This document shows, piece after piece, positions 3,147 through 57,716 of a stretch of 57,883 nt of DNA. The notes under the pieces are model-generated. The model did no database searches. It saw only the letters and a list, made by a program, of their open reading frames with translations, and was not told the DNA's origin. The first letter of the stretch is position 1; every line of letters starts with the position of its first letter. Source of the DNA: a virus (lineage: Duplodnaviria; Caudoviricetes); the IMG/VR virus record IMGVR_UViG_3300048631_000350, positions 1-57,883 of that record; one strand, 5' to 3'. The translations under genes were made by a program, and so were the position numbers.

Positions 3147-3458
3147 ATGGAAGAATCTTTGAACCCGGACTTCTGGTGGAGTATTGGGCTTTCCGTAACG
3201 GTTGCTGTCGCGGCCGCTGCAAGAAAAAAGGTAAAGCACCCGGACGAATTCAGGCAGATGAGCTGGATGGATTGGTGTGGGCATTTCGCCCTGGCCGGGA
3301 TAGGCGTCATCTTCTTGGGCGGGTTTATCGGTATTGAGATGGTGATGGCAGCTGGCGTTTTCCTCGTCTGCGCCCTCTACCCGATAGCCATCCTTGGCCT
3401 CATCGGGCGCCTTGATCAGTTTATCGTCGAGGCCGCCAGGCTTTTCCGAAAGCGCTAA
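3147..3458 (+). CDS. Small multi-pass membrane protein (moron)
   Basis: Three hydrophobic segments; GAGG RBS; convergent with the late operon. Confidence 0.7.
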   Translation: MEESLNPDFWWSIGLSVTVAVAAAARKKVKHPDEFRQMSWMDWCGHFALAGIGVIFLGGFIGIEMVMAAGVFLVCALYPIAILGLIGRLDQFIVEAARLFRKR

Positions 3459-6400: not shown

Positions 6401-9400
6401 AAGCGGTTCTCCGTGTTTACGCCACAAATCCTGACGCATTTTCTCGGTAAGCGCAAGCTGTCCCTCTTTCTGGAATCCGGTCAGAGTCGTGGCGCCTACC
6501 ACGCTGCCGCCATTGGCCTCGATATGACCTCTCAAGCCGGCAAGAGTCCCGCCCATAGTCATGGTGTCGTCTACGACCAGGTAATCTTTACCGGCCTCAA
6601 CCGGGCCATCAAAAGCGGAATGGTTCGCCAAACGGTAGTCTGCGCCAGTTCCGGTTCGCTTCGCCCGAACCGATTGAACAATATCGCCGTAAACCTCAAG
6701 CCCAAGTTCATGGGCGATTTTTACAGCATAGGCTGCAGGAATCGCGTTGTGCCCGCTGGCTTCTTCGGCCATCACCGGCACAAGTGCTGGCTTGCGATCC
6801 CCGATCATTGCACGGATCCGCCCGATGGCTTCATCTGTCACCAGATCATCCACCAAATCCATTGCCGCATCGGCATCACCGGACTTTGCAGCCTTGTACT
6901 GAGGGTGCTTCTCAGCTGAACCAAGCGCAGAGGCAAAAGGCACCTTCGGGAAATCGGCAGGCCATGGCGCCCGATCACTGCCGGCCTTTCCGGCTTTGGA
7001 GAATTTTGACGCGACCACGGGCGCCCCCTCGGCGCTTGAATCTGTTTCGAATCCCCCATTCTCTACAGTGCGCCTGGCTCGACGCAACAGGTCCACAATA
7101 TCCTCGACCGTAAATTCAATGGTAAACCCGAGCTTGCGCAGCCCTCTGCGGATAATGGCAACAGCTCGCTCAACCAGTGTCTGCCCCCGGTTCTGTTCGG
7201 CCAGATGGGCAATCAGTTCCTCGGCGATTTCGTGGCGATGCTCTTTGTTGTTGGCATCAAAGGACCCATCCGGGAAGTACCGGCGGATAATGAAATCAGC
7301 GCGGGTTTTGCCGCCATGGGCAGCCCAGATCTGATTCAGTACTGGTTCCAGATCCTTACCAAGCATCTTGCGCAGGCCGTAATGGCCGACCACCTCATGC
7401 AGTAACACCTGCTCCATGCGCATCCGATCAGGAATGCGAGAGGCCAGGAGATACGCGGTGTCATTCCAGAAGACGCCGCGCATATTGTGCTCGGCGCCTT
7501 TGGCCAGAATGATTGCTTGCAGCGCTGGAGGAAACTGGCCGATGTCATTTCGAATAATTACATCTGGCGCGCCCTTCCAGCCCTTCATCAACTGGCCGCT
7601 GATCTGCCTGGCCTCATCAACCGTCAGGGCGTCGTCCATGAACCCTGGCGTTCGGCGGTAGCTTTCGCGGGATAGCATCGCCTGTTTCCCGGACTCATCG
7701 GTGCCTTGATCGTTGGCCGCAGAATCCTGCGCAACCGCCTTGCCCTTGGCCTCGGTAAGCGTCTCCCCGGATGCGTAATTATCGCCCTTGTCTCGGGCTG
7801 CATCATTGGCGAACACGGCGAACAACTTGGTTCTGATGCCGCCATTGGTAAACGACAGGTCGGCAATGATCTGGCCGTCATCAGAGCGCCATAACCGCTT
7901 GCCATCTTTCTTCCAGCTTAGGGATGGTGCGTCAGAGTTCTCGGTTTGCTCTGAGGCACGCCCTTCGCCCTGTCCCTCTCTGAACGCCGCTTCTCGGTCG
8001 GATTGCGGGAAGATGGCCTTCATTTCCGGGCCGTAAATCTCGCGTCCGGTCGCTTCTTTTACCCGTTTCATAACGCCAAGGTTGCGATTCCCTACGGCGC
8101 CATAGTCCACATCCGGATACTCTCGGCCAATCTGGCGCCACACTTCAGCAAGCGCTTTCCGGTCTTCGGTGGCGGCGCCCTGGTTAACGGGTGCGTTATC
8201 TGGCACTTTGGCGGCTGCTTTCTTCCGCGCCTTCGTGGCCGGGATCGCCTTCGCCTTCTCGGGCTGCAACGGCTTTTTCGTATCACCGTTTTTCAGCCAG
8301 TCTTTGAACTCGTCCATGGAAAGGCGTTTGACGGGGCCGACTTTCCAGCCCTTGTCGTAATTGTCGCGATACCCTTTCCTGGCCTCTGCCTGATTCTTGA
8401 AGCCAAGCAGCACCTTGTGTTCGTCAAAGGTGCCGTCAGCGTTCTGCTGATCAACAACGAACACCCGGTCACTTTCTGGGTCGGGGCCAATGAACACGTC
8501 CACGTGATCGCCATCTGCACCCTCGGTTCGGTTCAGGTAACCATAATGGTGGGCCATGGTGTTTTCCCACCGATTGCCATTCGGGTCAGTTCCGGACCGC
8601 GTGGAGCCTTTCGGGTTCTCAATGGCAATATCAAGCCCATGGACTTTAACGCGCCCCTTCTTGTAGTTCCCCGCCTCTTTCTGCGCCTCGGTTGGCTCAA
8701 TATTGGTATCAGACGCCGCCACATCCACCGCCTCGGCAGGAGTCAGTTCTTGCGGCTGCACAGCCTCCGGAGTTGCGACAACGGGCGCGGCCTCAGTCTG
8801 CATCTGGGGGGTAGATTCTGCGGTTTGCTGATTGATGCTGGCAAGATGCTCCGAGATCGGTACCGCCTCGTACTTCGACTCATTCAGGGCTGCAACCGTA
8901 TTCCGCTCAAATGTCTCAGCGATTACTTCCCCGGTTTCCTTATTCCGGATAACCCAGCTGGCCTGCTTTCCTGTCGCATCTGTGGATTCTGGAACAGCGG
9001 GCTCCTGAGCAGGCTCCGGCGCCACGCTCTCGTCAGCAACTACTTCCTCTGCAGTCGGGGCCGGCTCCGAAAGGAAATCCTCGGCACTTTGCACGACCTG
9101 AGAATCTGAGCCTTGCGCTTCCGGGGCTGTCGATTCCTGTTCGACAATCTCACCTTCCGGGCGCGTGCCATCCCTAAAGATATTGGTTTGATTATCGGCC
9201 CACTCAGGGCGCCCCGGGTAATCCGTCGAGGGAGCGTTGTCGTCAGATGGCAGTACATCACCTTCTGACTCGGATGCTGCAGCTGGCTCGTCTACCACCT
9301 CATCATTGAGGATGGGCGGCGCGACTTCATCCGGAGCGGCCTCACCCTGGCGACGATTACGGACCTCGTTCACGGCTGCACCAGCCGTGCCGGCGGTTGT

Positions 9401-10294
9401 GCCGTATACGCCACCGGCTACGGCGCCAGCAGCGCCACGGTCCAGCGCTTCCCATACCGACATAGCGGCATCGGTGCCCAGCTTTTCGCCCAGATATTCA
9501 ATGATGCCTTCTTGCAGAAATTCGGTGCCAGCCTCTTTCGCCCCAGCCTTCGCGCCCTCTTTGGCCATTTTACCAATGCCGGCTTTGAGCGCTTCCTTGC
9601 CCAGCGTTTCGGCGCCGGCCTGAGTAATCCCAGATGCACCCATTCGCTCCAGAATGGCAGAACCCAGCGCGAACGGAGCAGCCTCGGCCACATCCACCAG
9701 CTCGGCGCCTTCCTTGCCCTTATTGCGGGCGCGTTCCTCGCCGATCTCCCCGGACCGGGCCATGACATACCCGGGCAGGTTCGCCATGGCGGCAAACATA
9801 TCCGGGATGGACTTCACGCCCTGTTCGGCGCCATATGCCAGAACCTCGCCCCACGCACTACCGCTGAGCGCGCCACCTTCGCCGAACTCCTGCTTGACGC
9901 TTTCCCAGGTGTGTTCGGGCACGTACCCGGCGTCGAAGTTAGCCCAGTAATCGGCAGCGGCTTTCAGGGGCTCGTCGCCACCTTGCTCGGCTCGCCACCG
10001 CTGGTATTCCTTGGGGTTCTTGTAATCCGGGATCAAGCCATCTTCCCAGACCAGACCACCCAACGGGTATTCCTGTTCCGCCTGCTCTGCCATGGCATTA
10101 CCGGCTGTGAACAACCCGCCCAGCAGCTGGCCACCACGCTCAACCGCACCGCGCCCCATGTTCATGGATGGTGCAGGCTCTGTGGATGTGGTGGCAGGCT
10201 CAGGGTCTGACGCCGTCAAAAAGGCCTCGGCAGATCCGAGCTTTTGCACCGGCTCGTTATCCGTGGATTCTTCCAGGAAGGCTTCTGCGCGCAT
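3455..10294 (-). CDS. Large polyvalent virion/ejection protein (PPase-like, zincin metallopeptidase, PRTase and LPD38-like domains)
   Basis: GNYKKG...IENPKGS...HYGY...GADGDHVDVF (PPase-like); HEVVGHYG (zincin); VVDDTMTMGGTL (PRPP-binding loop); C-terminal IPLPYGYN...NENFMGGPI...SPDVMHFLV (LPD38-like); last gene of the late operon. Confidence 0.85.
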   Translation of the reverse strand: MRAEAFLEESTDNEPVQKLGSAEAFLTASDPEPATTSTEPAPSMNMGRGAVERGGQLLGGLFTAGNAMAEQAEQEYPLGGLVWEDGLIPDYKNPKEYQRWRAEQGGDEPLKAAADYWANFDAGYVPEHTWESVKQEFGEGGALSGSAWGEVLAYGAEQGVKSIPDMFAAMANLPGYVMARSGEIGEERARNKGKEGAELVDVAEAAPFALGSAILERMGASGITQAGAETLGKEALKAGIGKMAKEGAKAGAKEAGTEFLQEGIIEYLGEKLGTDAAMSVWEALDRGAAGAVAGGVYGTTAGTAGAAVNEVRNRRQGEAAPDEVAPPILNDEVVDEPAAASESEGDVLPSDDNAPSTDYPGRPEWADNQTNIFRDGTRPEGEIVEQESTAPEAQGSDSQVVQSAEDFLSEPAPTAEEVVADESVAPEPAQEPAVPESTDATGKQASWVIRNKETGEVIAETFERNTVAALNESKYEAVPISEHLASINQQTAESTPQMQTEAAPVVATPEAVQPQELTPAEAVDVAASDTNIEPTEAQKEAGNYKKGRVKVHGLDIAIENPKGSTRSGTDPNGNRWENTMAHHYGYLNRTEGADGDHVDVFIGPDPESDRVFVVDQQNADGTFDEHKVLLGFKNQAEARKGYRDNYDKGWKVGPVKRLSMDEFKDWLKNGDTKKPLQPEKAKAIPATKARKKAAAKVPDNAPVNQGAATEDRKALAEVWRQIGREYPDVDYGAVGNRNLGVMKRVKEATGREIYGPEMKAIFPQSDREAAFREGQGEGRASEQTENSDAPSLSWKKDGKRLWRSDDGQIIADLSFTNGGIRTKLFAVFANDAARDKGDNYASGETLTEAKGKAVAQDSAANDQGTDESGKQAMLSRESYRRTPGFMDDALTVDEARQISGQLMKGWKGAPDVIIRNDIGQFPPALQAIILAKGAEHNMRGVFWNDTAYLLASRIPDRMRMEQVLLHEVVGHYGLRKMLGKDLEPVLNQIWAAHGGKTRADFIIRRYFPDGSFDANNKEHRHEIAEELIAHLAEQNRGQTLVERAVAIIRRGLRKLGFTIEFTVEDIVDLLRRARRTVENGGFETDSSAEGAPVVASKFSKAGKAGSDRAPWPADFPKVPFASALGSAEKHPQYKAAKSGDADAAMDLVDDLVTDEAIGRIRAMIGDRKPALVPVMAEEASGHNAIPAAYAVKIAHELGLEVYGDIVQSVRAKRTGTGADYRLANHSAFDGPVEAGKDYLVVDDTMTMGGTLAGLRGHIEANGGSVVGATTLTGFQKEGQLALTEKMRQDLWRKHGEPLDEYLHQEFGYGIDSLTQGEAGHFRKAVSLDAIRDRITAASVADNDQQNDGQEDSQGVVPPGARFSRDDVPDLDPEPFGAPSDTLLRKMISKIADKFTVLKGVQQNITDRFGEIQEDADAYLAEELFHGKVENDIRLIQENMIQPLAEKMSEYDVSLAQLDEFLYAKHAPERNRVIAQRNDQFPDGGSGMTNAEAAAVIDQVEKSGKLDQFQELADSVYQMLERRRKILKDAGLLDEETLGAWEASYRHYVPLKGWAADEKQEAMPKIGKGFAIAGKESQMAGGRKSKASSPVANAISDLSEAVLRQRKNEVGNAFLSLVQSYPNDGYWRVYTAENPEVERKAVKRVDPTTGKTVVRVEEQTVPMAMMSDRYFTTKVNGETYYIKLQDQRLMNAMRNIGPENNGLLVRSLSMVTRLMSSLNTSYNPEFVISNFSRDIQTALLNLTSEQSADDGKVRGERIAAKTLKSVPTAIRAINASLKGKPLNGRAGDWQRHFDQFRKDGAKTGWFDMKDVDGQMKDLETMISMAGGRTLSLRGLRRGFNAITDWVENTNSAIENGVRLSAYVNAIEAGIPRAKAASLAKNMTVNFNRKGELGTMMNALYMFANASVQGTANFVRTLGRLNGVKGDPVWRRLNTAQKIAAGMAVGGFMLSALNRLVAGDDDDGVNWWDKVPDYVKERNIVIMKSLVGGEPGEYWTIPLPYGYNIFPVIGTGMEHMLASDKPAGDIASNIVLAGLGSFSPIGFEQSEEVYGILFKNITPTILRPGASIMMNENFMGGPIYRRSPAYSTPKPDSALSFRSTPEVYKSLAETINEATGGSAFRSGAMDFSPDVMHFLVGYYGGGAYNFFTSRAPNAALKWAQGVELEDREIPFYRKLHGKVLRFDDESKFYDRRDEINQLADERDNLRGRERVEFVKEYRDKIRLKGTMESVEKRLKLLRAQRDRVEAMDLSAAETDKRLQHIEKQMKRAIDQFNKRYNESED

Positions 10295-21212: not shown

Positions 21213-22013
21213 TTAGCCGCGCTCGGCGTACAGGTGGCCGATGGCGTTCGGGTCGATGACTTTGCGGCCATAGACGTTCAGGCCACGGATCAGCTTGCCG
21301 AAGTCTTGCGGGTTCGGCAGCGTTTCCATGTTGGTCATCTGACTGGCGAAGGTCAGCGCCTTCTTGTGACCAAAGATCACGTTGGTGGCCGGACGGGTGG
21401 TGGTGCCATCAACAACTGTGTTCAGGTTGTTGGACACGTACACGGTGAAGCGATCCAGTTCGCCCACCTTGCCATTGCGGTAAACGCTGGTCGCGTCACC
21501 CATGGCGCTGGCGTCGCGCAGATCAGACTTCTTGAGCATGCCGTTCATCCACGCCGGGATGACGATGTACCGCCCGGTGTTCGGGCAGTTCTGCTCGTCC
21601 AGTGCCACGCCGGCATCAACAATCACATCCATGATGTTGGCCTTGGTGACGGCTACCGGCGCGCCGGCTTCGCCCAGGTTGATGGAGCCAGACTGGGCAC
21701 CAGCAGCTGCACCGGCATTCTCCGGGGCCGCCTCGGTGTACGCGTAGGCGTTCACATCGGTGTCGATCTTGATGGACATTTGCTGACCACCATCGTCAGA
21801 CCAGTTGTCCATCAGCTTGATGTCGGACTGGTAGGCGTCCACATCGTTGACCTCAAAGGCAAAGTACTTCGCCTGGTCAATCTGCAGCTCCACCTTGTCG
21901 GAAGTCGGCTTCTCGTAGTTGAGGCCGCCGCCGATCTCGTAGTCACGGATCGTGATGGACGGAGTGGTACGGATCTGCACGCTGTCACCCTGCTGCTTGA
22001 TCTCGCCCTCGTA
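21213..22013 (-). CDS. Major capsid protein, exon 2 (YEGEIKQQGDSVQIR...ERG*)
   Basis: Joins exon 1 in frame to give NTDYEGEI and a 313-aa P22-coat-like capsid protein; RGLNVYGRKV C-terminal motif. Confidence 0.9.
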   Translation of the reverse strand, partial: YEGEIKQQGDSVQIRTTPSITIRDYEIGGGLNYEKPTSDKVELQIDQAKYFAFEVNDVDAYQSDIKLMDNWSDDGGQQMSIKIDTDVNAYAYTEAAPENAGAAAGAQSGSINLGEAGAPVAVTKANIMDVIVDAGVALDEQNCPNTGRYIVIPAWMNGMLKKSDLRDASAMGDATSVYRNGKVGELDRFTVYVSNNLNTVVDGTTTRPATNVIFGHKKALTFASQMTNMETLPNPQDFGKLIRGLNVYGRKVIDPNAIGHLYAERG

Positions 22014-23050
22014 CAGGCGTGTTACCCCAAGGGCTCTTTATCCCCTGGTTCTGCCGGTTCATTTCCCGACAGTTCGGACTATATCATCACCCAGCGCGGG
22101 AGCCGTGAGGCTTCCTTCCATCCGCATGCCGGCGAACATTCCTGTAATACTCTCGCGAGTAACAGGCTGTGCAGAGGCCTCCGCGCCTTTTTTCGTAGAT
22201 CACGGAATTGCATTCTCTGCACTCGCCAACGGGTGTCTGGCACTCGTGGGAACGCATGTCTGATAGGTGGCTCAGTTTGTAGAGCATTGGTTCCGGGATG
22301 TATTCCTCAATTAAGCGACCGAACTTTTTGCTTTCTTCGGTGTTCGCTTCAATGAAGAATTGACTCCCGGGGCTGCAAGTTTTCTTGCAGCGCTTCTTGA
22401 AGGCAATTCCGTGATTTTCAATAAACCACTGTATTACCTGCTCCACCTCTTCTTCTGAGCACATCGTTGCAATGTTGGTAGCGACCGAGGTTACTCGTCC
22501 ATCTTTGTTGGTGTTTCGCCTGGCATGACCATCATCCATGTACCAAATGGCAATGCCTTCAGGTGTAAGCATGTCAAGCACCTGACCAGAAAGGCGCTTT
22601 TGGCCTCCCGGGTACAGCCAGCGCTTGACCTGACCAAAGTACGGATGACTGACTCCGAACTGATACGCACTGTACCTGCCCCCCGGTCCATTCTTAACCT
22701 TGGTGACATTGATCTGCCTTCCGCCTAGCGCCCATCCTAAACGCTTGGCCTTCCACTCAACATAGAGCCTTTGGCTTTCACCGTGCAGAACCCTCATTGT
22801 GCGGGATTCGTAAGGATACTTGCCTTGCCCGAGTCGCTGACGGACCTGGATATGCCCGTCACCAAGCGCCATCCCAATGATGACGCCTCGCTTTTCGCTA
22901 TTCATTGCAGCACCTATTTCGTGGCACTAAGGCCATGAGGTATGAAATGCGTCCCTAGTCTCTGAACCTTCCCAAGTCCGTTTGGGCTTGGCTGCTGATT
23001 CCCGTTTCAGGGTTCCAGCAATTCACCAGATTTTACACCGACCACGATTA
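22014..23050 (-). ncRNA. Self-splicing group I intron (1037 nt, IA-like with P7.1) in the major capsid gene
   Basis: P1 ACACCGAU/GUCGGUGU with a U.G splice pair; P10 UCGUG/UACGA; P (AAUUGCUGGAA), Q (AAUCAGCAG), R (UUCAGAGACUA) and S (GAUAUAGUCC) elements; terminal G. Confidence 0.92.
22087..22905 (-). CDS. Intron-encoded double-motif LAGLIDADG homing endonuclease with C-terminal CxxC-CxxC
   Basis: GVIIGMALGDG and LTPEGIAIWYMDDG motifs; CREC...CTAC tail. Confidence 0.9.
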   Translation of the reverse strand: MNSEKRGVIIGMALGDGHIQVRQRLGQGKYPYESRTMRVLHGESQRLYVEWKAKRLGWALGGRQINVTKVKNGPGGRYSAYQFGVSHPYFGQVKRWLYPGGQKRLSGQVLDMLTPEGIAIWYMDDGHARRNTNKDGRVTSVATNIATMCSEEEVEQVIQWFIENHGIAFKKRCKKTCSPGSQFFIEANTEESKKFGRLIEEYIPEPMLYKLSHLSDMRSHECQTPVGECRECNSVIYEKRRGGLCTACYSREYYRNVRRHADGRKPHGSRAG

Positions 23051-23191
23051 ATCGGTGTTGGCGATTTCGGCGTAGTAGGTGTGGGCGTACAGCTTTTCGA
23101 CCAGCTTTCCGCTCCATACGGAGGGGATAAAGCCGGGGGTGCTGGTGCTGGAGTAATTCGGGTGCCCTGCGGCACGAGTTGGACCTGCCAT
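23051..23191 (-). CDS. Major capsid protein, exon 1 (47 aa, MAGPT...EIANTD)
   Basis: GAGAGG RBS; FIPSVWSGKL capsid N-terminal motif; ends at the intron 5' splice site. Confidence 0.9.
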
Positions 23192-23233
23192 GATAATTAC
23201 CTCTCGGGATCGGGAACCGCGAGAAGGGGGCGG

Positions 23234-24187
23234 TTATCGAACGCGCCCCTCATTCAGTGCGGCAAAAATGTCGGCTTCCAGCCGCTCCCGCTCGCTCGCG
23301 CTGTATTTCCCGGCGGCCGCATCCTTGTAGAACTTCTTGATTTCCCCGTCCGTCCAGACCGTCTGCCCCTGTGGGGTCTCGGTCGCACGGCTGGTTTGGG
23401 GGTCTACTTGGTCGTCGGGAATGCGCGGCTTGGGAGCCGGCTGTTGTTTTTTGAAGTCGTTGAACACGGCGGCTACGCCGTCTGCATCCAGTGCCTGTTG
23501 CGCATCCGCCAGGGTTTGCTGGCGTTGCTTTCCGGTCTGCGAGTCAAACTGGGTCAGGAAGGCGTGGAAGGCCTGATCGGCGTTGATCTGCTTCCAGTCG
23601 GGCACCAATTCTGTCAGCACGGTCCAGAACGTTGCCTGGGCCTTTTGCTGATCACGCTCCTTGATCTCGTTCAGCTGGTCTTCAAGCTGTCGAACCTTGG
23701 AGTCGTCGGTTGCCGGAACGGCCTTGCTGTCGATCATCTTCTGAACGAACAGCACAAAATCCTCGCCAAATTCTTCCTTGCCTTTCTGGATCTGCTCGTC
23801 GGTCAAGCCGCCAGGGTTGTTGGCTGGATTGGATGCCTGCTTCAGCGCATCGATCTCGCGGCCTTTCGCTTCGAGCTGACCTTTCAGTTCGCTGACTTCT
23901 CGACGCAGCGCGGGCACCTCGGCGGCGTACTTCCCACTCATGACGTTGAAGCGGTGTTCCCAGTAGGTCTCGGAACGCTTAGGCTGATCGCCCGGCGTTT
24001 CGTCGCTGCCTTGGGAGTGCTCGTTGTCTTCGGGTTTCGGCTGGGTGTCAGCGGGTTGCGCGGCAGTGTCCGTTGCATCAGGCGTCTTTTCTTCCGCTTC
24101 CGGAGCCGCTGGCGCGGGATTCTGGAGGGCATCAAAGTGCGCTTTCGCCTCATCGGCTTGCTTCTGGACGGAACGGGGTAGTGACAT
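23234..24187 (-). CDS. Capsid scaffolding protein
   Basis: Acidic coiled-coil protein before the capsid gene, ending in EGRVR; AAGGAG RBS before MSLPRS. Confidence 0.75.
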   Translation of the reverse strand: MSLPRSVQKQADEAKAHFDALQNPAPAAPEAEEKTPDATDTAAQPADTQPKPEDNEHSQGSDETPGDQPKRSETYWEHRFNVMSGKYAAEVPALRREVSELKGQLEAKGREIDALKQASNPANNPGGLTDEQIQKGKEEFGEDFVLFVQKMIDSKAVPATDDSKVRQLEDQLNEIKERDQQKAQATFWTVLTELVPDWKQINADQAFHAFLTQFDSQTGKQRQQTLADAQQALDADGVAAVFNDFKKQQPAPKPRIPDDQVDPQTSRATETPQGQTVWTDGEIKKFYKDAAAGKYSASERERLEADIFAALNEGRVR

Positions 24188-24294
24188 TTCAACTCCTTGT
24201 GCGCTTATCTGCGCGGTGAGCCGGCAAGTGCCGGGGTTCACGATTCGGGATCACGGATTCAGCAACCAGTGGCCGCTGGTGCTGAGCGTTCGCC

Positions 24295-24339
24295 CACAAA
24301 AAAGCCGCCTCCCATTGCTGGTGAAGCGGCTTTGTTGTG
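24295..24339 (-). terminator. Intrinsic terminator between the portal and scaffold genes
   Basis: AAAGCCGC...GCGGCTTTTTT on the minus strand. Confidence 0.65.
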
Positions 24340-24359
24340 AGGCCCGTTTCCGGGCGGTG

Positions 24360-24581
24360 TTAGCTAAATCGTGTTTTGACAGTCTCGGGGGCTTTTTCGA
24401 TCAACTCCATCATATCCTTGTAGGCCTTGGCGCCACCCTGCTCGATACCAAAATTGTCAGGGCTGGCTTGCTCAAGACGGTCTCTGCAGACCTCTCTGCG
24501 GCGCCGGAGAATAGCCAGCAGATGCTTGCCATCCGGGGTTGCGGCCAGTCTGGCCAGGGCCTTCCAGTCCTGTTCGTTCAT
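24360..24581 (-). CDS. Small conserved protein after the portal
   Basis: 73-aa ORF in the usual post-portal slot. Confidence 0.6.
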   Translation of the reverse strand: MNEQDWKALARLAATPDGKHLLAILRRRREVCRDRLEQASPDNFGIEQGGAKAYKDMMELIEKAPETVKTRFS

Positions 24582-26688
24582 CGGGTTTCACCATGTTGAG
24601 GATTTCTGCGAGCAACTTACGGGCTTCCAGCGGGGTCAAAGTCTGGGTTCGCTGGGCATCCGCCTGAGTCTCGGCCACTTCGGCCTCACTCTTGGCGGCC
24701 TTGGCCATTTTCTCCTGCGCTTCGGCCTGCTTAATCATTTGCTCGAGCTTCTGCATCATCTGCCCCTGCTCCTGCTGAGAGGCCAGGTTCTCGCGCATCT
24801 TGTCCTCAGAGGGGATCAGGCCGGGCAGGTCCAACTTCTCAGCCACAGCGGCCAGCAGGTCGCGGCGGCCCTCTTGACCGATAATGCCCATATCAATCGG
24901 GTTCGCAGTCATTGCCAAGAACTCGGCGCGCATCTGGTGCGTCTGCTCACGAATCAGCATGGCGCTGGAGCCGCGAGGCACTACCGACACATCGCCCTTG
25001 ATGCTGTTGTCGTCGCTGTACTGCATGTTGTGCAGCCACAGAGCCTCGATCACACGGCGAATCACGCCCCGGTCAATGTGGCGAATGGCGTCCTTGATGC
25101 CCTTGTTGGCACTTTCCATGAGCATGGACAGGCCGCTGGCTGTCTGACCAGCACCGCCCACGCGCTCATTACCGTAGGCGTAGCGGGGAATATTGGTCGC
25201 ATCGTCGGCCCGGCGCTCAAACTGCTCATAAACCGTCAGCAACTCAGCAGCGTTGCTGGTTGGCTGGAAGAATCGCACCGCCGGATTGTTGCCGGTAACG
25301 GCGGAATCCTTCGTGCGCCAGACCTTCCACGGATACATGTTCGTCGGGTCTTCCGTGGCGTCCAGCCGTTCCTCGTACACTTCCACCTGCGGGCCGGAGG
25401 AAATTGCCAAGTTATTCACCAGGCTGCGGGCGGTGGCGTTACACACGTCCTGAACGTCTGCCATTAGCTCGGGAATGCCTTGGCCCCAGAATGAGCCCGG
25501 CACCGGCTGGAAGCTCGCCGTGTGGTACGGGCGGCGCTCCAGGGGATCACGGTTGATCTTCACGCGGATAACGTGACGACCAATCAGCGTGGCTTCCACC
25601 TCGTACTCGGCCAGCGGGTCTTCGATGTCGTCCGGGTTTACGCCCCACTGCAGCAGGCTGATACCTTGCGCGCCGCCGCAGTAGATCAGCGCATCGATAG
25701 TCTGGCCCTTGGTCAGCCATTCATGGCCGCGCCCTTCCAGTTCCGCGCGTTCGCCGTCCGTCCACAACCAATTGCGCAGACCGCTCTGGCCGTGCTCCTG
25801 AAGCACGTTGCGGATGGCTTCTTCGTTGTACCCAGGCGCTCCAATCAGTCTGTTCAACTGGCCCCGGGTAAACCGGCACCGCTCGATGATGTACGCGCCG
25901 TCATCAATGCTGACCGCATCCGGGCTCGGGTACAGGTCAAAGGGGCTTACCCGGTACCAGTCCGGGCGAATTTCTTTTGTCTTGACCGGCTTCCATCCCT
26001 GCATCCACGCCAGTGCGGAAACGTTACGCAGGTTGTGGCCGCGAATAATGGCGTTCGGGTAGGTAGCAAAATCCTCAATGAAGTCTGCCAGTGCGTTATC
26101 CCAGTTACCCTCGCTCAACTGGTCTTCAATCAACTCCTGGTGCCGCTCGGCGGCTTCCTCGGCCATTTCCTGCGCAGCACGGCGCACATGATCCTCGGCG
26201 GCTTTCATCACCGCTTGCGGATCCAGTGGCTGGCCAGTCTGTTCGGCCTGCATGGCGGCTTGCTGAATGAACTGACGGAATACCGGGCGCAAAAACTCAG
26301 GGGGAACGCTGGCGATCGGTGTCGGTTCCAACCCCCACGGGCGCTCGTTGGCGGGCATGAGAATGTCCCGAATCCACGACGAAGCCGCCCGACACTTGGT
26401 GGTGGTCAGCATCATAAAAATGGCGCTGCCGCCTTCTTGCTGAATTGCGGCCAGCTTTTCCGGGGAGTACTCGCCCTTGCGCCGTCTCAGGCAGTCCAGC
26501 AGGCGGCGCTCCACCTCCTGCTTGGCCATCTTGGCTTCTTCCCAGCACCGATGGATGTGCGAGCCCAGAGAACTCTCCAGCAACGCACGGCGGCGCTCCT
26601 GTTCATCCTGTAGCCGTTGTGCTTCTTGCTCATCAACGGCGCGAAGGTCCGCAGCAGATCGATACTGCAGAAGGCCCAAACTAGCCAT
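24472..26688 (-). CDS. Portal protein
   Basis: 738 aa after the terminase; RVSPFDLYP, FWGQGIPE and TASGLSML motifs of P22/933W-like portals. Confidence 0.88.
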   Translation of the reverse strand: MASLGLLQYRSAADLRAVDEQEAQRLQDEQERRRALLESSLGSHIHRCWEEAKMAKQEVERRLLDCLRRRKGEYSPEKLAAIQQEGGSAIFMMLTTTKCRAASSWIRDILMPANERPWGLEPTPIASVPPEFLRPVFRQFIQQAAMQAEQTGQPLDPQAVMKAAEDHVRRAAQEMAEEAAERHQELIEDQLSEGNWDNALADFIEDFATYPNAIIRGHNLRNVSALAWMQGWKPVKTKEIRPDWYRVSPFDLYPSPDAVSIDDGAYIIERCRFTRGQLNRLIGAPGYNEEAIRNVLQEHGQSGLRNWLWTDGERAELEGRGHEWLTKGQTIDALIYCGGAQGISLLQWGVNPDDIEDPLAEYEVEATLIGRHVIRVKINRDPLERRPYHTASFQPVPGSFWGQGIPELMADVQDVCNATARSLVNNLAISSGPQVEVYEERLDATEDPTNMYPWKVWRTKDSAVTGNNPAVRFFQPTSNAAELLTVYEQFERRADDATNIPRYAYGNERVGGAGQTASGLSMLMESANKGIKDAIRHIDRGVIRRVIEALWLHNMQYSDDNSIKGDVSVVPRGSSAMLIREQTHQMRAEFLAMTANPIDMGIIGQEGRRDLLAAVAEKLDLPGLIPSEDKMRENLASQQEQGQMMQKLEQMIKQAEAQEKMAKAAKSEAEVAETQADAQRTQTLTPLEARKLLAEILNMVKPDERTGLEGPGQTGRNPGWQASAGYSPAPQRGLQRPS

Positions 26689-27076
26689 TGGCTGCCGTCT
26701 CCCGGGTCAGAATGTCGTACATGGCCGCATCCAGAAGGCGCTTGTTATGGCGCATCTTCTGGCCGTTGCGCAGCATCGGGTACAGGTGGTCAAACAAGTC
26801 TTTCAGGGTGCCAACAGGATCTTTCTCGAAATCTTCCAGGTTCACGTTGAACGCCACGCCGAACCGGGCTTCGGTCATAAACTGCAAACGAACGCCAGGC
26901 TTGGGCTGCGTTACGCGCTTCTCGATGATGATCGGGTCAATCTGGATGTAATCCACATCGTTGCGGAACTGGCCGTTGGGTACCGGAAGGCCGGTTTTGG
27001 CAATAGCCTTCGCTACCAGTACAGCCACTTCCCGTTGCGTCAAAGTGACCGGCTTGTTCGATTCGAGAATGGCCAT
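26681..27076 (-). CDS. Hypothetical protein
   Basis: GAGG RBS; between terminase and portal. Confidence 0.65.
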   Translation of the reverse strand: MAILESNKPVTLTQREVAVLVAKAIAKTGLPVPNGQFRNDVDYIQIDPIIIEKRVTQPKPGVRLQFMTEARFGVAFNVNLEDFEKDPVGTLKDLFDHLYPMLRNGQKMRHNKRLLDAAMYDILTRETAANG

Positions 27077-27084
27077 GGATACCT

Positions 27085-28686
27085 CTAGGTGTGTGCGGCC
27101 CAGTTTCCGCGACGGGCGGCTGGGCGGCTTTTGGCAAAATCGCTGCGCACGCTGCGCTTGAATATGTCAGCCCGGGCCAGCGTCTCCAGCGCCTTGGCAC
27201 CGTGAGAGGCCCAATCATGGCGGGGCCGGTCTTTATAAACGCCCCGTTTCTCGTCCCATTCCTTGCGGTAGTTGTCGAGGCACAGCACGCCTTGTTCGCA
27301 TGTCTGCTCATTGATCCAGCAGGATGGGAGAAACTGGCGCACGGCCTGCACGCCCTCGGCGTGGTTGCTGATTCTCGGGATGGTTTCAAACCGGATGCCG
27401 AACTGCTTGGCGACATCAGAACGGGAAAGCCCGGTACCGAGCTCTCGCACAGCCAGATCGTGCGGGCCGAAGTGCCCGCCGTAGCGGTAGCCCTTTTTGT
27501 TCAGCTGGTCGGCGTAGTACTCAATGCCTTCGCCTTCGCCTTCCAGGTAATCCACCAGGTGGACTTCCCGGCCGACAAGTTGGGCGAACCAGATGGCCAT
27601 GGTGTCATTCATACCCAGATCCCAGCCGGTAAACACCGGCAGGCTCGGGTTAACCTGCACCTCCGTGGTCAGGCGCTTGTTCTTGCGCAGGAATCGCATC
27701 TGAGTGGCGTAGTACGCACCCTCGACAGACTGAGCGAACGCCTCATCCGGCGTGGATGGATACTCGCGCTGCATGTCGTCCTGCAGAACCTGGGCTTTTT
27801 TCGCATACCAGGCCTGCTGCCCGGGCGTGGTCGTAATGCCGTGCTTGGCTTGCAGATCCTCGAAATACTCCTGCAGCCGAATCGGCACCATGACCGTGGC
27901 CGGGTCCATGGTGTAAGCAGGCTCCTGCCACCACGGGAAGAAATGAAACTGAAAATCCAGATCGGTCAGCGGCCGCTGCAATTCCTGCAGGTGCTGGGCG
28001 TGCTGGCAGTAATCGAAAAAGTACCCTTCCCGGCCCTCGGCGGTAGACTCCAGGGTGATCTGGTTACCCAGACCGACCGCCTCAAAAGCACCGGTGACAA
28101 TCTCTTGAGCCTTGTGCGGGAACTGTTTGCAGATCTTCCCGAACTCCGAGACATGCAGCCGTTGCAAGGTGCCGCCCCGGTAACTGGTGCTGACCTTGAT
28201 ACTGGAGCCGTTGTCGAACACGTAGGCGCCGGATCCGGTCTTGTCGCTGGCCGGTCTCGGCAGGTGCAGGCCAATGCGCTCGAAAATGCCCAGCCACGCC
28301 TCCGGAATGTTCTCGTAAGCAAAGGTGATTTTGTTCCGGAAGATGTCCTGCGCGTCGTCAAGCTTGTGACAGATACAGCCCGCGGCGTAGTTCTCGATGA
28401 ACAGGCAATCATCCAGGGCGTCGATCATTTCAAAGGTGGTAAACCCGAGCTGGCGCGCCTTCAGGATGATGTTTCGGGAATGGCCGTTGATGTACCGGTC
28501 GCGCTGCGCCTGATTCGGGCGAAACTTGATCTTCTTCCCGTGCTTGTCCTTGATGTAGTACAGGGTGTTAATCCTGAACCACTTGATGGCCAGCGCTTCA
28601 ACCAGGTGCGCCTTTTCCGTGAGCTCTCCTTGCTCCAGGGCGATCAGATAGGCTTCCCCCAATCTGACCTCGGCGGCGCGGTTCAT
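27085..28686 (-). CDS. terL: Terminase large subunit
   Basis: ILKARQLGFTT Walker A, LHVSE Walker B, LESTAEG coupling motif, WDLG nuclease motif. Confidence 0.95.
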   Translation of the reverse strand: MNRAAEVRLGEAYLIALEQGELTEKAHLVEALAIKWFRINTLYYIKDKHGKKIKFRPNQAQRDRYINGHSRNIILKARQLGFTTFEMIDALDDCLFIENYAAGCICHKLDDAQDIFRNKITFAYENIPEAWLGIFERIGLHLPRPASDKTGSGAYVFDNGSSIKVSTSYRGGTLQRLHVSEFGKICKQFPHKAQEIVTGAFEAVGLGNQITLESTAEGREGYFFDYCQHAQHLQELQRPLTDLDFQFHFFPWWQEPAYTMDPATVMVPIRLQEYFEDLQAKHGITTTPGQQAWYAKKAQVLQDDMQREYPSTPDEAFAQSVEGAYYATQMRFLRKNKRLTTEVQVNPSLPVFTGWDLGMNDTMAIWFAQLVGREVHLVDYLEGEGEGIEYYADQLNKKGYRYGGHFGPHDLAVRELGTGLSRSDVAKQFGIRFETIPRISNHAEGVQAVRQFLPSCWINEQTCEQGVLCLDNYRKEWDEKRGVYKDRPRHDWASHGAKALETLARADIFKRSVRSDFAKSRPAARRGNWAAHT

Positions 28687-56278: not shown

Positions 56279-56463
56279 GCCAACAACCAAAATGGGTGCT
56301 TGAAAAGCGCCTCCGAGAACTGACCGGCCTGAGCCATGAGCAGGTGCGCCTGCGCCGGGGGCAATGGGTGGAGGGTCGCCAGTGGAAGTACGGCCCAGAC
56401 AAAACCATCTGGTACAACCTGGAGGAAATCGAACGGTGGGTCGAAAACGGAATCGCGGCCTAA
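56275..56463 (+). CDS. xis: Excisionase
   Basis: KWV....L.ELTGL...W.EG..W...PD..IWYN.EEI.RW; overlaps the int start. Confidence 0.85.
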   Translation: MSQQPKWVLEKRLRELTGLSHEQVRLRRGQWVEGRQWKYGPDKTIWYNLEEIERWVENGIAA

Positions 56464-57716
56464 GCCCCCAGGAAGAACGGGAGGCCATCGAGCAGTTGGT
56501 GGCCAATTCCCCGGGCATTGAGTTGCGCGGCGAGGCCGTCCGGATTGATTTCATGTACCAGGGCAAGCGGTGCCGGGAGACGCTGAAAATCCCGCTGACG
56601 TTTGCCAACGTGGAATATGCGGTCAACAAGCGGAAGTCGATTCAGCTGGAAATCCGCCAGGGTGCGTTCGATTACGCGGTGCATTTCCCGGAATCGACCA
56701 GGGCCCGGAATACCAAAGCCAGCCGGTCAATCGATCTTGAGTCTCTGTATCGGCGCTATCTGCCGGTCATGGCCATGGACATTACGACCGAGACCGAACG
56801 GCGGTACAAGGTGGCTCTGGACGTGTGCTGTGAGATTGTCGGCTGGTCCGTGCCAGTGGACACGCTCATGCCTGAAGATGTGGACAGGCTGCGCTCCGGC
56901 CTCATTGCCACGCGCAAACCGTCCACAGCGAATCACTATGTCAGCGTCTGGAACGGAATGTTGAGCTGGGCCAAGGCCAATGAATACACCTCTCGTGATC
57001 TGAGTGCGTCAAAGTTCAAGGGTGTGGCCGATGATCCGGACCCGCTGACTTTGGACGAGTACAGGGAAGTGATCGAGAATGGCTGCCTGCACCCCCAGGA
57101 CAAGGCGCTGGTCACGCTTGCAGTTTACACCGGGCTTCGGCCTGGCGAACTGTGCGCCCTGGCCAGAGAGGATATTGAGGGCAACCTGATACACGTTCGG
57201 CGATCAGTGACAGCAGCCAAGGTGCTGAAGGTGCCAAAGACCGAGAACGCGAGAAAGGTTTGGCTGGTACCGCCAGCACAGGAAGCGGTCAGGGCGCTAC
57301 TGGAAATGACCAGGGACGCCAAACCCGTCGAGGAAGCCGTGGAGATCAGCCGACACCAGTCGCGCAAGGAAACGATTACGCCACTGGTGACGCCGTTGCA
57401 GGCGAGGAACAAGAGCATTTCCACCAACCGCATGCAGGTCGGTTCGTGGGCGACGAAGTGGGAGAAGCTGCTGACCAGGGCAAAGGTCCGGCGCCGGGTT
57501 GCCTATCAAACTCGTCACACTTATGCCTGCTGGTCACTGACGGCACATGGTAACATTGCGTTCATTGCAAAGCAGATGGGCCACAAAGACTATTCCATGC
57601 TGGTGAAAGTCTATGGCCGGTGGATGGATTCGGAGTCTGAGAACGAGGCGGAATTCATCTGGCAGGAATTGCAGAAAAGCGGTGCATTTTGCCCCACGAT
57701 TGCCCCAAGCGAATGA
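56436..57716 (+). CDS. int: Tyrosine integrase with DUF3596-type arm-binding domain
   Basis: IDFMYQGKRCRETL...FDY..HFP.S; TGLRPGE, PKT, YQTRHT, QMGH and Y catalytic motifs; GTG start behind GGAGG. Confidence 0.95.
   Translation: MGRKRNRGLSPQEEREAIEQLVANSPGIELRGEAVRIDFMYQGKRCRETLKIPLTFANVEYAVNKRKSIQLEIRQGAFDYAVHFPESTRARNTKASRSIDLESLYRRYLPVMAMDITTETERRYKVALDVCCEIVGWSVPVDTLMPEDVDRLRSGLIATRKPSTANHYVSVWNGMLSWAKANEYTSRDLSASKFKGVADDPDPLTLDEYREVIENGCLHPQDKALVTLAVYTGLRPGELCALAREDIEGNLIHVRRSVTAAKVLKVPKTENARKVWLVPPAQEAVRALLEMTRDAKPVEEAVEISRHQSRKETITPLVTPLQARNKSISTNRMQVGSWATKWEKLLTRAKVRRRVAYQTRHTYACWSLTAHGNIAFIAKQMGHKDYSMLVKVYGRWMDSESENEAEFIWQELQKSGAFCPTIAPSE
57688..57710 (+). repeat. Putative integrase arm-type site (tandem TTGCCCCA), right arm, inside the int 3' end
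   Basis: TTTGCCCCACGATTGCCCCAAGC; partner at 242-264. Confidence 0.75.

What the first reader, a model, noticed from the sequence alone, without database searches (positions are those of the whole stretch)
21213..23191. Major capsid gene interrupted by a group I intron: virion assembly depends on splicing
Seen: exon 1 ends ...ANTD and is followed immediately by TAA. Removing 22014-23050 restores NTD|YEGEI and a 313-aa capsid protein. P1, P10 and the terminal G all fit this junction. Known: phage group I introns are mostly described in DNA-metabolism genes of lytic phages and usually carry GIY-YIG or HNH enzymes. A LAGLIDADG intron in the capsid gene of a temperate proteobacterial phage is unusual, and automated annotation would truncate the gene.
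Basis: partly seen in the sequence, partly recalled or inferred. Interest (0 to 1): 0.8.

Follow-up and report, generated by a model that had tools for sequence, protein, structure and literature searches.

The report
Self-splicing intron splits phage capsid gene
The major capsid gene of this temperate phage is cut in two by a mobile group I intron that carries its own homing endonuclease, so the coat protein can only be made after RNA splicing; this kind of element is already known in a few other phages, but here it belongs to a large intron family that targets capsid genes.

Summary
On the minus strand, exon 1 (23191..23051, 47 aa, ending IANTD) is followed by TAA. Exon 2 (22013..21216, 266 aa) starts YEGEIK. 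The two abut without gap or overlap against uninterrupted 313-aa homologues up to 96% identical.

The 1037-nt insert (23050..22014) is a group I intron. It has:
- P1 with a U·G pair at the 5' splice site, P10 and a terminal G.
- A P3–P9 core with the P3/P7 pseudoknot.

In 11 related introns, 92.7% of cells are paired against 33–46% in slid controls, and 38 of 75 pairs show compensatory changes. Rfam scores it 38.6 bits, below the 50-bit cut-off. Compact relatives with the same core score 50–84 bits.

The 272-aa ORF is an I-SceI-like LAGLIDADG endonuclease. It reads through the P7.1', P3' and P8 strands of the ribozyme.

The intron is identical in phages whose exons differ by 1.5–4%, which suggests recent homing. 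Splicing itself was not observed.

Precedents exist in LittleE and Tuc2009 (PMC3706429), so this is a new member of a known kind. This capsid family carries introns at about nine sites.

The parts
23051..23191 (-). Capsid exon 1 (47 codons, MAGPTR...IANTD); Shine-Dalgarno GAGAGG at 23205..23200
   Evidence: aligns to residues 1-47 of uninterrupted 313-aa homologues
22014..23050 (-). Group I intron, 1037 nt
   Evidence: RF00028 at 38.6 bits (E 6e-8); 13 helices supported by covariation
21213..22013 (-). Capsid exon 2 (266 codons YEGEIK...YAERG plus stop)
   Evidence: phrog_267 major head protein 5.3e-52; aligns to residues 48-313
23048..23050 (-). In-frame UAA, the first intron codon; halts ribosomes coming from exon 1
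   Evidence: a stop lies within the first two intron codons in 11 of 11 aligned introns
23036..23057 (-). P1: exon 23057..23051 (CACCGAU) pairs with internal guide 23042..23036 (GUCGGUG), U·G at the splice site. The loop holds the P10 guide 23047..23043 (UCGUG), which pairs with exon 2 at 22013..22009 (UACGA)
   Evidence: the guide covaries with the exon sequence (for example UAUGA/UCAUG, GAAGG/CCUUU)
23024..23030 (-). P3 5' strand (UCUGGUG); its partner is 22242..22236 (UGCCAGA), inside the endonuclease ORF
   Evidence: 98.7% of cells paired, 3 of 7 pairs with double changes
22966..23020 (-). P4-P5-P6-P6a domain
   Evidence: matches the RF00028 consensus; P4 changes U-A to G-C in 3 sequences
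22956..22960 (-). P7 5' strand (GACUA); its partner is 22081..22077 (UAGUC)
   Evidence: invariant in 11 of 11, so it says nothing for or against by covariation; forms a pseudoknot with P3
22949..22955 (-). P7.1-like helix, 5' strand (GGGACGC); its partner 22255..22249 (GCGUUCC) closes the roughly 690-nt insert that holds most of the ORF
   Evidence: 7 of 7 pairs with double changes, 98.7% paired. ORF-less relatives have a short hairpin here
22911..22942 (-). Stem-loop that pairs the endonuclease Shine-Dalgarno (AGGUG, 22915..22911) with UACCU (22942..22938)
   Evidence: the conserved two-tier stem is the minimum-energy fold in 9 of 10 relatives, but not in the window's own sequence. MAFFT mis-registers it, so it scores poorly
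22087..22905 (-). LAGLIDADG homing endonuclease ORF, 272 aa, with a C-terminal CxxC...CxxC tail
22088..22235 (-). P8: 22235..22231 (CACCC) pairs with 22092..22088 (GGGUG). Its loop encodes the four-cysteine tail; the stop codon 22089..22087 straddles P8 and J8/7
   Evidence: 100% paired, 4 of 5 pairs with double changes. L012 and L084 have a minimal P8 hairpin and no cysteine tail
22027..22072 (-). P9 (22072..22066 with 22057..22051) and P9.1 (22048..22042 with 22033..22027)
   Evidence: 5 of 7 and 7 of 7 pairs with double changes
22014..22014 (-). Terminal G (omega G)
   Evidence: G in all 12 related loci read
23234..28686 (-). Upstream head-gene context: 335-aa ORF (scaffold position, not tested), portal-like 24472..26688, large terminase 27085..28686
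56364..57716 (+). Integrase
   Evidence: phrog_1, 1.4e-51

Best explanation
The major capsid gene of a complete, integrase-bearing phage genome is interrupted after codon 47 by a mobile group I intron.

Inferred from the anatomy:
1. The late head-gene transcript contains the intron.
2. Ribosomes reading exon 1 stop at the UAA that is the first intron codon.
3. The RNA folds into P1 (the last 7 exon bases paired to the internal guide, with U·G at the cleavage site) and the P3-P9 core.
4. A free guanosine attacks after U23051.
5. P10 brings in the first 5 bases of exon 2, the terminal G (22014) enters the G site in P7, and the exons are joined.
6. The joined mRNA encodes the 313-aa coat protein with ...IANTD joined to YEGEIK....

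The intron also encodes an I-SceI-like, single-chain LAGLIDADG endonuclease.
- Its ribosome-binding site can be locked in a stem.
- Its reading frame runs through the 3' strands of P7.1 and P3 and both strands of P8. Translating it and folding the ribozyme should therefore exclude each other on one RNA molecule.
- The enzyme most likely cuts intron-less capsid alleles at the conserved NTD/YEGE-coding site. Repair from an intron-bearing genome then copies the intron in (homing).

Shown here: the gene split, the helices and their covariation, the endonuclease family and fold, and an intron identical across diverged exons. Inferred: splicing, the timing of endonuclease expression, cleavage and homing.
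For: Split gene:
- The exons abut exactly on uninterrupted 313-aa homologues.
- In 80 related IMG/VR capsid loci, 64 are uninterrupted.
- The intron-less site reads AACACCGAY|TAYGARGG in those that keep Asp at the site.

Ribozyme:
- RF00028 scores 38.6 bits, E 6e-8 in 1.5 kb and 2.3e-6 window-wide.
- On 11 introns at this site (A2), 92.7% of 812 cells form standard pairs against 33-46% when partners are slid.
- 38 of 75 pairs change on both sides, and 0 of 500 shuffles reach any measure.
- P3, P7.1, P8, P9 and P9.1 are each 97-100% paired.
- The P1 and P10 guide sequences change together with the exon codons.
- ORF-less relatives sharing the core reach the Rfam cut-off: 5 matches of 50.5-84.2 bits in 8 loci.

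Gene still in use:
- dN/dS between intron-bearing alleles is 0.06-0.31 for the four exon comparisons that differ (window against L003, L004, L005). Exon 1 of L004 is identical to the window.
- dN/dS is 0.089 for the endonuclease.
- The record is rated 100% complete.

Endonuclease:
- LAGLIDADG_2 at 84.1 bits.
- Both motif aspartates (D16, D124/D125) are invariant in 10 of 10 relatives.
- The model has pLDDT 84 and matches I-WcaI and I-SceI at TM 0.69, E about 1e-11.

Mobility:
- The intron is 1037/1037 and 1036/1037 identical to L003 and L004, whose exon 2 is 98.5% and 96.1% identical.
- A DNA run of a coded organism shows 36 differences in the 2.5 kb laid. None is in the intron; the nearest are 6 nt and 81 nt from the splice sites.
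- Intron G+C is 46-55% against 57-64% in the flanks.
Against: - No RNA evidence of splicing. The three RNA runs laid gave contigs only inside the intron or inside exon 2, and none bridges a splice site.
- The Rfam score is below the gathering cut-off, and nothing is found at gathering threshold.
- cmscan's own alignment misplaces P1/P2 in exon 1 and P3' inside the ORF.
- There is no P2, and P5 is only 3 bp.
- P7 never varies, so covariation says nothing about it.
- The ribosome-binding-site stem is not the minimum-energy fold of the window's own sequence.
- The 11 sequences are related. The shuffle control can therefore overstate support; the slid control is the fairer one.
- An 820-nt ORF threaded through P3' and P8 could make folding depend on a protein helper rather than being strictly self-splicing.
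Confidence: 0.9

Rival explanations
1. It is a true group I intron, but it needs a protein helper to splice. The helper would be its own LAGLIDADG protein acting as a maturase, or a host RNA chaperone.
For: The core is weak in places: no P2, a 3-bp P5, and a roughly 690-nt insert between P7 and P3' plus a roughly 135-nt L8. The ORF is under strong purifying selection (dN/dS 0.089). LAGLIDADG maturase activity in a bacterial intron (Thermotoga) and StpA help for T4 introns are described in PMC3984707 (passages read). The bI3 maturase is among the structural matches (rank 25).
Against: Both catalytic aspartates are kept in 10 of 10 relatives, which points to an active nuclease. An identical intron in diverged exons argues for ongoing homing. 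ORF-less relatives of the same core exist, so that core can persist without an encoded protein.
Confidence: 0.15
2. The insert is a decayed, non-splicing relic. The capsid gene is dead, or coat protein is made from an internal start in exon 2 (GTG at 21980, 255 aa).
For: No spliced RNA was seen. The Rfam score is sub-threshold. A 255-aa ORF exists, and gene callers report such proteins.
Against: Exon 1 keeps its start codon, ribosome-binding site and conserved sequence. Both exons evolve under purifying selection among intron-bearing alleles. All helices are kept by compensatory change across relatives down to 40% capsid identity. The genome is rated complete. In uninterrupted homologues the GTG is simply an internal Val codon of GDSVQIRT.
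Confidence: 0.04
3. The insert is another kind of element: an intein, an insertion sequence, a group II intron, or a free-standing endonuclease gene that splits the capsid gene into two separately translated polypeptides.
For: LAGLIDADG enzymes also occur in inteins. Split phage genes with inserted endonuclease genes are known (recalled, not checked here).
Against: A stop codon follows exon 1 at once, and the ORF starts 146 nt later, out of frame with exon 1, so it is not an intein. There are no transposase or reverse-transcriptase hits. The group I helices and guide pairings to both exons are conserved. Exon 2 has no start codon or ribosome-binding site at its first codon.
Confidence: 0.01

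Closest known systems
Mycobacteriophage LittleE capsid-gene intron (Pope et al. 2013, PMC3706429; passages read)
   Same: A temperate phage whose major capsid gene is split by an endonuclease-bearing intervening sequence. U ends exon 1 and G ends the intron. The encoded protein is LAGLIDADG-like. In LittleE, splicing was shown by RT-PCR and by N-terminal sequencing across the junction.
   Different: LittleE infects an actinobacterium. Its intron is 819 bp and its endonuclease gene lies on the opposite strand; the protein is 177 aa and I-CreI-like. That capsid fold family and insertion site are unrelated to this one. No splicing is shown here. Here the ORF is on the same strand and threads through the ribozyme core.
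Lactococcal phage Tuc2009 capsid subunit gene intron (known to me only as cited in PMC3706429)
   Same: A group I intron in the capsid gene of a temperate phage.
   Different: A Gram-positive host. I did not see the original paper, so no further comparison was made.
Subgroup IA2 phage introns, for example the Pf-WMP3 DNA polymerase intron (PMC3428280, passages read)
   Same: No P2. Extra helix or helices right after P7. The endonuclease ORF overlaps core helices. U·G at P1 and a short P10.
   Different: Pf-WMP3 has two hairpins, P7.1 and P7.2, joined by G-U-A, and an HNH nickase starting in P6a. Here one long-range helix encloses the ORF, and the enzyme is LAGLIDADG. Subgroup membership was not established.
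S-PM2 psbA group I intron, and the sequence splitting terL in Streptococcus thermophilus Brussowvirus phages
   Same: blastn similarity of about 77% to the 5' core (intron positions 18-95) and to the 3' part with P7', P9 and P9.1 (positions 960-1031). The matches lie in a joined psbA CDS and between two 'terminase large subunit' CDS.
   Different: Different host genes, no shared ORF, and only 70-80 nt of similarity.
I-SceI / I-WcaI (monomeric double-motif LAGLIDADG homing endonucleases)
   Same: Sequence match to I-SceI at E 6.6e-5. Fold match at TM 0.69. Two LAGLIDADG motifs, each with its acidic residue.
   Different: 18-21% identity. A phage intron rather than a mitochondrial rRNA intron. 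An extra C-terminal CxxC-x12/13-CxxC tail in 8 of 10 relatives, modelled with only moderate confidence (pLDDT 67-79).

Membership tests
Group I intron (Rfam RF00028) | Covariance-model score at or above the curated gathering score (50 bits) | tested here: not met
   38.6 bits, E 6e-8; nothing at gathering threshold. Relatives with the same core score 50.5-84.2 bits and 64-68 bits. The shortfall is explained by the ORF inserted in the core.
Group I intron (Rfam RF00028) | P1 formed by the exon-1 end and an internal guide, with U·G at the 5' splice site | tested here: met
   7 of 7 pairs in the window. U precedes the splice site in all 12 related loci read. The guide covaries with the exon.
Group I intron (Rfam RF00028) | Terminal G, and P10 pairing to the start of exon 2 | tested here: met
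   G at 22014. P10 is 5 of 5 in the window, with 4 of 5 pairs showing double changes across relatives.
Group I intron (Rfam RF00028) | Conserved core P3-P8 with the P3/P7 pseudoknot, kept by compensatory change | tested here: met
   92.7% paired against 33-46% when slid; P3, P4/5 and P8 show double changes. P6 and P7 are invariant and so uninformative.
Group I intron (Rfam RF00028) | Guanosine-dependent self-splicing | not testable with these tools
   RNA contigs of three runs do not reach a splice site.
Subgroup IA2 | P7.1 and P7.2 hairpins after P7 (linked by G-U-A); P2 may be absent | tested here: inconclusive
   P2 is absent in 10 of 11 (L084 has one), and there is a helix directly after P7. 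Its topology is one long-range helix with inner stems, not two hairpins. No subgroup models were available.
LAGLIDADG homing endonuclease, monomeric I-SceI type | Pfam LAGLIDADG_2 above cut-off | tested here: met
   84.1 bits against 25; phrog_11023 at 3e-19.
LAGLIDADG homing endonuclease, monomeric I-SceI type | Two LAGLIDADG motifs, each ending in a catalytic acidic residue | tested here: met
   GMALGDG (D16) and WYMDDG (D124, D125), invariant in 10 of 10. Which residue is catalytic is judged by analogy with I-SceI (recalled).
LAGLIDADG homing endonuclease, monomeric I-SceI type | Double alpha-beta-beta-alpha-beta-beta-alpha fold | tested here: met
   Model pLDDT 84.2, pTM 0.74. Best matches are I-WcaI and I-SceI, TM 0.69, E about 1e-11.
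LAGLIDADG homing endonuclease, monomeric I-SceI type | Site-specific cleavage of the intron-less allele | not testable with these tools
   Supported only indirectly, by the intron being identical across diverged exons.
P22-coat-like major capsid protein | Family profile match over the full length | tested here: met
   phrog_267 at 5.3e-52 for exon 2. Homologues carry precomputed PF25209 and the names 'P22 phage major capsid protein family'. My own Pfam scan of the 255-aa ORF did not return PF25209.
Intein | Insert in frame with the host protein, with no stop codons | tested here: not met
   TAA follows exon 1 directly, and the ORF is in another frame.

The most novel reading that the evidence does not exclude
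The short, highly conserved segment of P22-like coat genes that encodes IANTDYEGEIK may be a contested landing site for several lineages of endonuclease-bearing group I introns.

- Relatives carry introns at 44/45, 47/48, 48/49 and 50/51, all within 18 nt, and at about five further sites.
- One capsid gene (L084) carries three LAGLIDADG-bearing inserts.
- On the endonuclease tree, the one-codon shift between 47/48 and 48/49 happened at least twice. Each time the guide sequence was re-fitted.
- The window's copy is identical in phages whose exons differ by up to 4%, so it has moved recently.

Its endonuclease may therefore act as a weapon between related temperate phages, by cutting the capsid gene of intron-less rivals or resident prophages during co-infection. 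This would resemble what was reported for the PhiPA3 intron endonuclease (PMC11620839; abstract seen in the listing only).
Probability: 0.3. Interest if true: 0.7.

Novelty: new member of a known kind. Interest (0 to 1): 0.5.

Why it matters
- Annotation. Gene callers will report a truncated 255-aa 'capsid' and miss exon 1. Six such 255-256-aa proteins, and eight of 280-281 aa that fit a second intron site, are already in the databases for Halomonas, Marinobacter and Chromohalobacter genomes. Capsid-based phage classification and completeness estimates can be affected.
- Biology. An essential late structural gene depends on RNA catalysis. The intron-encoded endonuclease competes with the ribozyme for the same RNA, giving a compact system for studying the interplay of translation and splicing.
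- Evolution. The family offers a natural series: the same site, two registers, with or without the cysteine tail, with or without the ORF, and one to three introns per gene. This suits the study of how homing endonucleases and ribozymes re-target.
- Tools. The I-SceI-like enzymes recognise a conserved roughly 20-bp coding site and could be a source of new meganuclease specificities.

Tried and rejected
- Rfam at gathering threshold on the whole window found nothing. The intron appears only in E-value mode.
- cmscan's own alignment puts P1/P2 inside exon 1 and P3' at a site inside the ORF. Covariation does not support that, and I replaced it.
- My first hand-reading was wrong. It took the ribosome-binding-site stem or a 4-bp long-range pairing as P8, and an A/U-rich pairing right after P7 as P3. 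ORF-less relatives showed the order P7, P7.1, CACGAG, P3', P8, J8/7, P7', which then passed the pair count.
- RNA evidence: three metatranscriptome runs (X15-X17) hold only 151-258-nt contigs inside the intron/ORF or inside exon 2. There are no joints and no bridging contig, so nothing can be said about splicing or expression.
- The five intron-sized inserts at 36/37 and 44/45 (L232, L247, L242, L235) and 123/124 (L084) got no Rfam match at E <= 0.001. I call them group-I-like only from their ends and LAGLIDADG ORFs.
- Pfam did not name the capsid fragment.
- Intein, insertion-sequence and group II readings are rejected (see rivals).
- I did not check at DNA level that the 255/256-aa and 280/281-aa database proteins come from interrupted genes.
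- Four literature searches and passages of PMC11878797, PMC12880540, PMC11835236, PMC3984707, PMC7344957, PMC2988022, PMC6669764 and PMC3888941 gave no report of introns in this capsid family.
Full report
**1. The observation**

The feature lies on the minus strand.
- An ORF starts at ATG 23191, with GAGAGG 8 nt upstream. It runs 47 codons (MAGPTR...YYAEIANTD) to base 23051 and meets TAA at 23050..23048.
- Translation from 22013 gives YEGEIKQQGDSVQIRTTPS...YAERG and a stop at 21215..21213, 266 residues.
- Gene finding by ORFs alone sees only a 255-aa frame from GTG 21980.
- Exon 2 matches PHROG 267 'major head protein' at 5.3e-52, beginning at profile position 68 of 410. The start of the protein is therefore missing from it.
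- A search of 5.8 billion proteins returned 7056 relatives. Most of the 120 listed are 311-315 aa, and the best is 96% identical and 313 aa long.
- In alignment A1 the two window pieces meet at ...IANTD then YEGEIK... without gap or overlap against the six 312-313-aa proteins and a 328-aa Rhizobium phage capsid.

**2. What the insert is**

The 1037 nt between the exons (23050..22014) hold a 272-aa ORF (22905..22087). It matches Pfam LAGLIDADG_2 at 84.1 bits against a cut-off of 25, and PHROG 11023.

Rfam finds nothing at its curated threshold. In E-value mode it reports RF00028, the group I intron model, at 38.6 bits against a gathering score of 50 (E 6e-8 on 1.5 kb, 2.3e-6 on the whole window). 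It is the only intron-like match in the window.

By sequence, the last seven exon bases CACCGAU pair with GUCGGUG 15 nt into the insert, ending in U·G at the junction (P1). UCGUG in the P1 loop pairs with the first five exon-2 bases UACGA (P10). The insert ends in G.

**3. Relatives and the real secondary structure**

I fetched loci encoding relatives of the endonuclease: 80 from IMG/VR and 20 from one-per-species genomes.
- tblastn with an uninterrupted capsid protein hit 12 of these 100 loci: L003-L012, L083 (a Lamprobacter MAG) and L084 (a Smithella MAG).
- These are the 12 whose endonuclease is 43-100% identical to the window's.
- In every one the endonuclease gene sits inside a homologous capsid gene (40-96% identical) at residue 47-49.
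- The other 88 loci, with endonuclease identity of 33% or less, had no capsid match.
- I read the junctions in all 12.

Of these, 22 lie in related capsid genes.

Some of the 120 are compact, ORF-less introns. They showed that my first hand-reading of P3 and P8 was wrong. The true order is P7, a helix I call P7.1, the hexamer CACGAG, P3', P8, J8/7, then P7'.

**4. Covariation test**

Applied to the window, this gives 13 helices. I counted them on alignment A2: 11 introns with 12 nt of exon on each side. L003 and L008 were left out because their introns duplicate those of the window and L007.

| Measure | Observed | Control |
|---|---|---|
| Cells forming standard pairs (812 cells) | 92.7% | 33-46% with partners slid by 1-3 columns |
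| Pairs changed on both sides | 38 of 75 | about 21 in shuffles |
| Shuffles reaching any of the five measures | 0 of 500 | |

- P3 (98.7% paired), P7.1 (7 of 7 pairs with double changes), P8 (100%), P9 (97.4%) and P9.1 (100%, 7 of 7) carry most of the signal.
- P6 and P7 never vary, so they are uninformative.
- The two small stems upstream of the ORF score poorly (64-66%) because MAFFT mis-registers them.
- The sequences are related, so the slid control is the fairer one. It is decisive.
- Compact relatives with the same core pass the Rfam cut-off: 5 matches of 50.5-84.2 bits in 8 loci.

I therefore accept the insert as a group I intron. The sub-threshold Rfam score is explained by the large ORF threaded through the core.

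P2 is absent in 10 of 11 introns. A helix directly follows P7, as in IA-type phage introns (PMC3428280, passages). I could not assign a subgroup.

**5. Anatomy worth noting**

(a) The first intron codon is an in-frame UAA. A stop lies within the first two intron codons in 11 of 11 introns. This fits the need to keep exon-1 ribosomes out of the ribozyme, which is established knowledge from T4 td that I recall and did not check here.

(b) The endonuclease start is preceded by AGGUG, which can pair with UACCU in a two-tier stem. That stem is the minimum-energy fold in 9 of 10 relatives, with compensatory changes, but not in the window's own sequence.

(c) The ORF does not sit in a loop. It starts inside the P7.1 insert and reads through P7.1', CACGAG, P3' and the P8 5' strand. 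The conserved peptide SHEC(Q/R)(T/A)P is encoded by these core strands. The ORF continues through L8, which encodes a CxxC-x12/13-CxxC tail, and stops at a UGA straddling P8 3' and J8/7.

(d) L012 and L084 lack the tail and have a minimal P8 hairpin. ORFs that overlap core sequences are a known arrangement (PMC3984707, figure legend read).

**6. The endonuclease**

- It matches I-SceI by sequence at E 6.6e-5.
- An AlphaFold model from a 10-sequence alignment has pLDDT 84.2 and pTM 0.74. It matches I-WcaI and I-SceI best, at TM 0.69 and E about 1e-11.
- Both LAGLIDADG motifs keep their aspartates in 10 of 10 relatives.
- dN/dS between the window and L005 is 0.089.

It is very likely an active, monomeric homing endonuclease. 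Cleavage was not tested.

**7. Is the capsid gene alive, and does the intron move?**

Between intron-bearing alleles the four exon comparisons that differ give dN/dS of 0.06-0.31; exon 1 of L004 is identical to the window. The record is a whole IMG/VR virus rated 100% complete.

The surrounding genes fit a temperate phage:
- a large terminase;
- a portal-like protein;
- a replicative helicase and a primase;
- a RecE-like exonuclease;
- an integrase.

Evidence that the intron moves:
- It is 1037/1037 identical to L003 and 1036/1037 to L004, whose exon 2 is 98.5% and 96.1% identical.
- Against L005 it is 85.5% identical, with exons at 77-80%.
- A DNA run of a coded organism holds the whole 2.5-kb stretch in a 32.8-kb contig with 36 differences. 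None is in the intron; the nearest lie 6 nt downstream and 81 nt upstream of the splice sites.
- Intron G+C is 46-55% against 57-64% in the flanks.

This is the pattern expected from recent homing with short co-conversion tracts. Strong constraint on the intron could contribute.

Intron-less alleles are common. Among the 80 closest capsid loci, 64 are uninterrupted. Those that keep Asp at the site read AACACCGAY|TAYGARGG there.

**8. What was not shown**

No spliced RNA was seen. Three RNA runs gave only short contigs inside the intron or exon 2. 'Virion assembly depends on splicing' therefore remains an inference. It is a strong one, because exon 1 is conserved and no start codon stands at the head of exon 2.

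**9. Wider picture (seen in passing, partly followed)**

- This capsid family carries intron-sized inserts at about nine places. Four of them lie within 18 nt of each other in the IANTDYEGEIK-coding segment (44/45, 47/48, 48/49, 50/51).
- Four of the inserts were confirmed by Rfam at 48-68 bits in one call.
- 13 of the 80 closest loci are interrupted.
- L084 has three inserts, each with a LAGLIDADG ORF.
- Introns at 47/48 and 48/49 are close relatives. On the endonuclease tree, (window, L005) is sister to (L006, L083) with 100/98 support, and L007 lies elsewhere. The one-codon shift therefore needs at least two changes. Each register has its own matching P1 and P10.

**10. Comparison with what is known**

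- Capsid-gene introns are documented. LittleE is a temperate mycobacteriophage whose capsid intron has a LAGLIDADG-like ORF on the opposite strand; splicing was shown. That paper also cites Tuc2009 (PMC3706429, passages).
- Reviews state that phage group I introns mostly carry GIY-YIG, HNH, PD-(D/E)xK or EDxHD enzymes (PMC3984707). A LAGLIDADG enzyme is thus the less common case, though not unique (PMC11878797 lists one).
- The ribozyme shares about 77% identity over 70-80 nt with the S-PM2 psbA intron, and with the sequence splitting terL in Streptococcus thermophilus phages.
- My four literature searches found no description of introns in this capsid family.

**11. Verdict**

The finding is real and correctly interpreted. 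It is a new member of a known kind, not a new kind. The added interest lies in three things: the ORF-through-core architecture, the evidence for recent mobility, and the intron hot-spot in P22-like coat genes.

- Confidence that it is a splicing group I intron that restores the 313-aa coat protein: 0.9.
- Interest: 0.5.

Noticed in passing
L084:2100-5000 (Smithella sp. MAG contig): One capsid gene carries three intervening sequences: after ...KFIP, after NTD, and between residues 123 and 124 of the reference. Each holds a LAGLIDADG ORF (172 aa LAGLIDADG_1; 234 aa LAGLIDADG_2; 297 aa LAGLIDADG_1/_3). Rfam detects only the middle one (35.1 bits).
   Followed up: partly
L232, L235, L242, L247, L265, L285, L286, L288, L289, L302, L168, L195: Related capsid genes carry intron-sized inserts at other sites: 36/37, 44/45, 50/51, 98/99, 212/213 and about 246. 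Rfam confirms group I introns in L288 (68 bits, ORF-less), L265 (67.7), L302 (64.3), L168 (84.2), L285 (47.9) and L195 (38.3). The inserts at 36/37 and 44/45 share a different core that Rfam does not detect.
   Followed up: partly
L006, L007, L008, L083 compared with window 23051/22013: Closely related introns sit one codon further on (NTDY|EGE instead of NTD|YEGE), with re-fitted P1 (CGACUAU/GUAGUCG) and P10 (GAAGG/CCUUU). The endonuclease tree needs at least two register changes.
   Followed up: yes
proteins P0003, P0060, P0070, P0086, P0100, P0119 (255-256 aa) and P0028, P0052, P0059, P0061, P0085, P0088, P0089, P0108 (280-281 aa): Database capsid proteins from Halomonas, Marinobacter, Chromohalobacter and Vreelandella genomes and from metagenomes have lengths that fit truncated gene calls downstream of the 47/48 and 36/37 intron sites. 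Their DNA was not examined.
   Followed up: no
L226, L227, L231, L240, L260 (NTY); L234 (NTL); L253, L257 (NTI): Many intron-less alleles have Tyr, Leu or Ile in place of the Asp at the insertion site. These might be variants that the endonuclease or the P1 pairing cannot use; this is speculation.
   Followed up: no
window 43242-43355 (+): Weak match to Rfam RF01719 Pseudomon-1/ErsA sRNA: 32.9 bits against a cut-off of 50, E 0.012. It overlaps the start of the helicase gene on the other strand and is probably chance.
   Followed up: no
window 3455-10294 (-): A 2279-aa ORF lies downstream of the head genes. It was not examined.
   Followed up: no
L303 (Streptococcus phage SW13, record positions 1723-2008): The large terminase is annotated as two CDS separated by about 285 nt. 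That gap matches the 3' part of this intron (P7', P9, P9.1) at 78%. 47 S. thermophilus phage records match this part of the intron; I examined the annotation only in SW13.
   Followed up: partly
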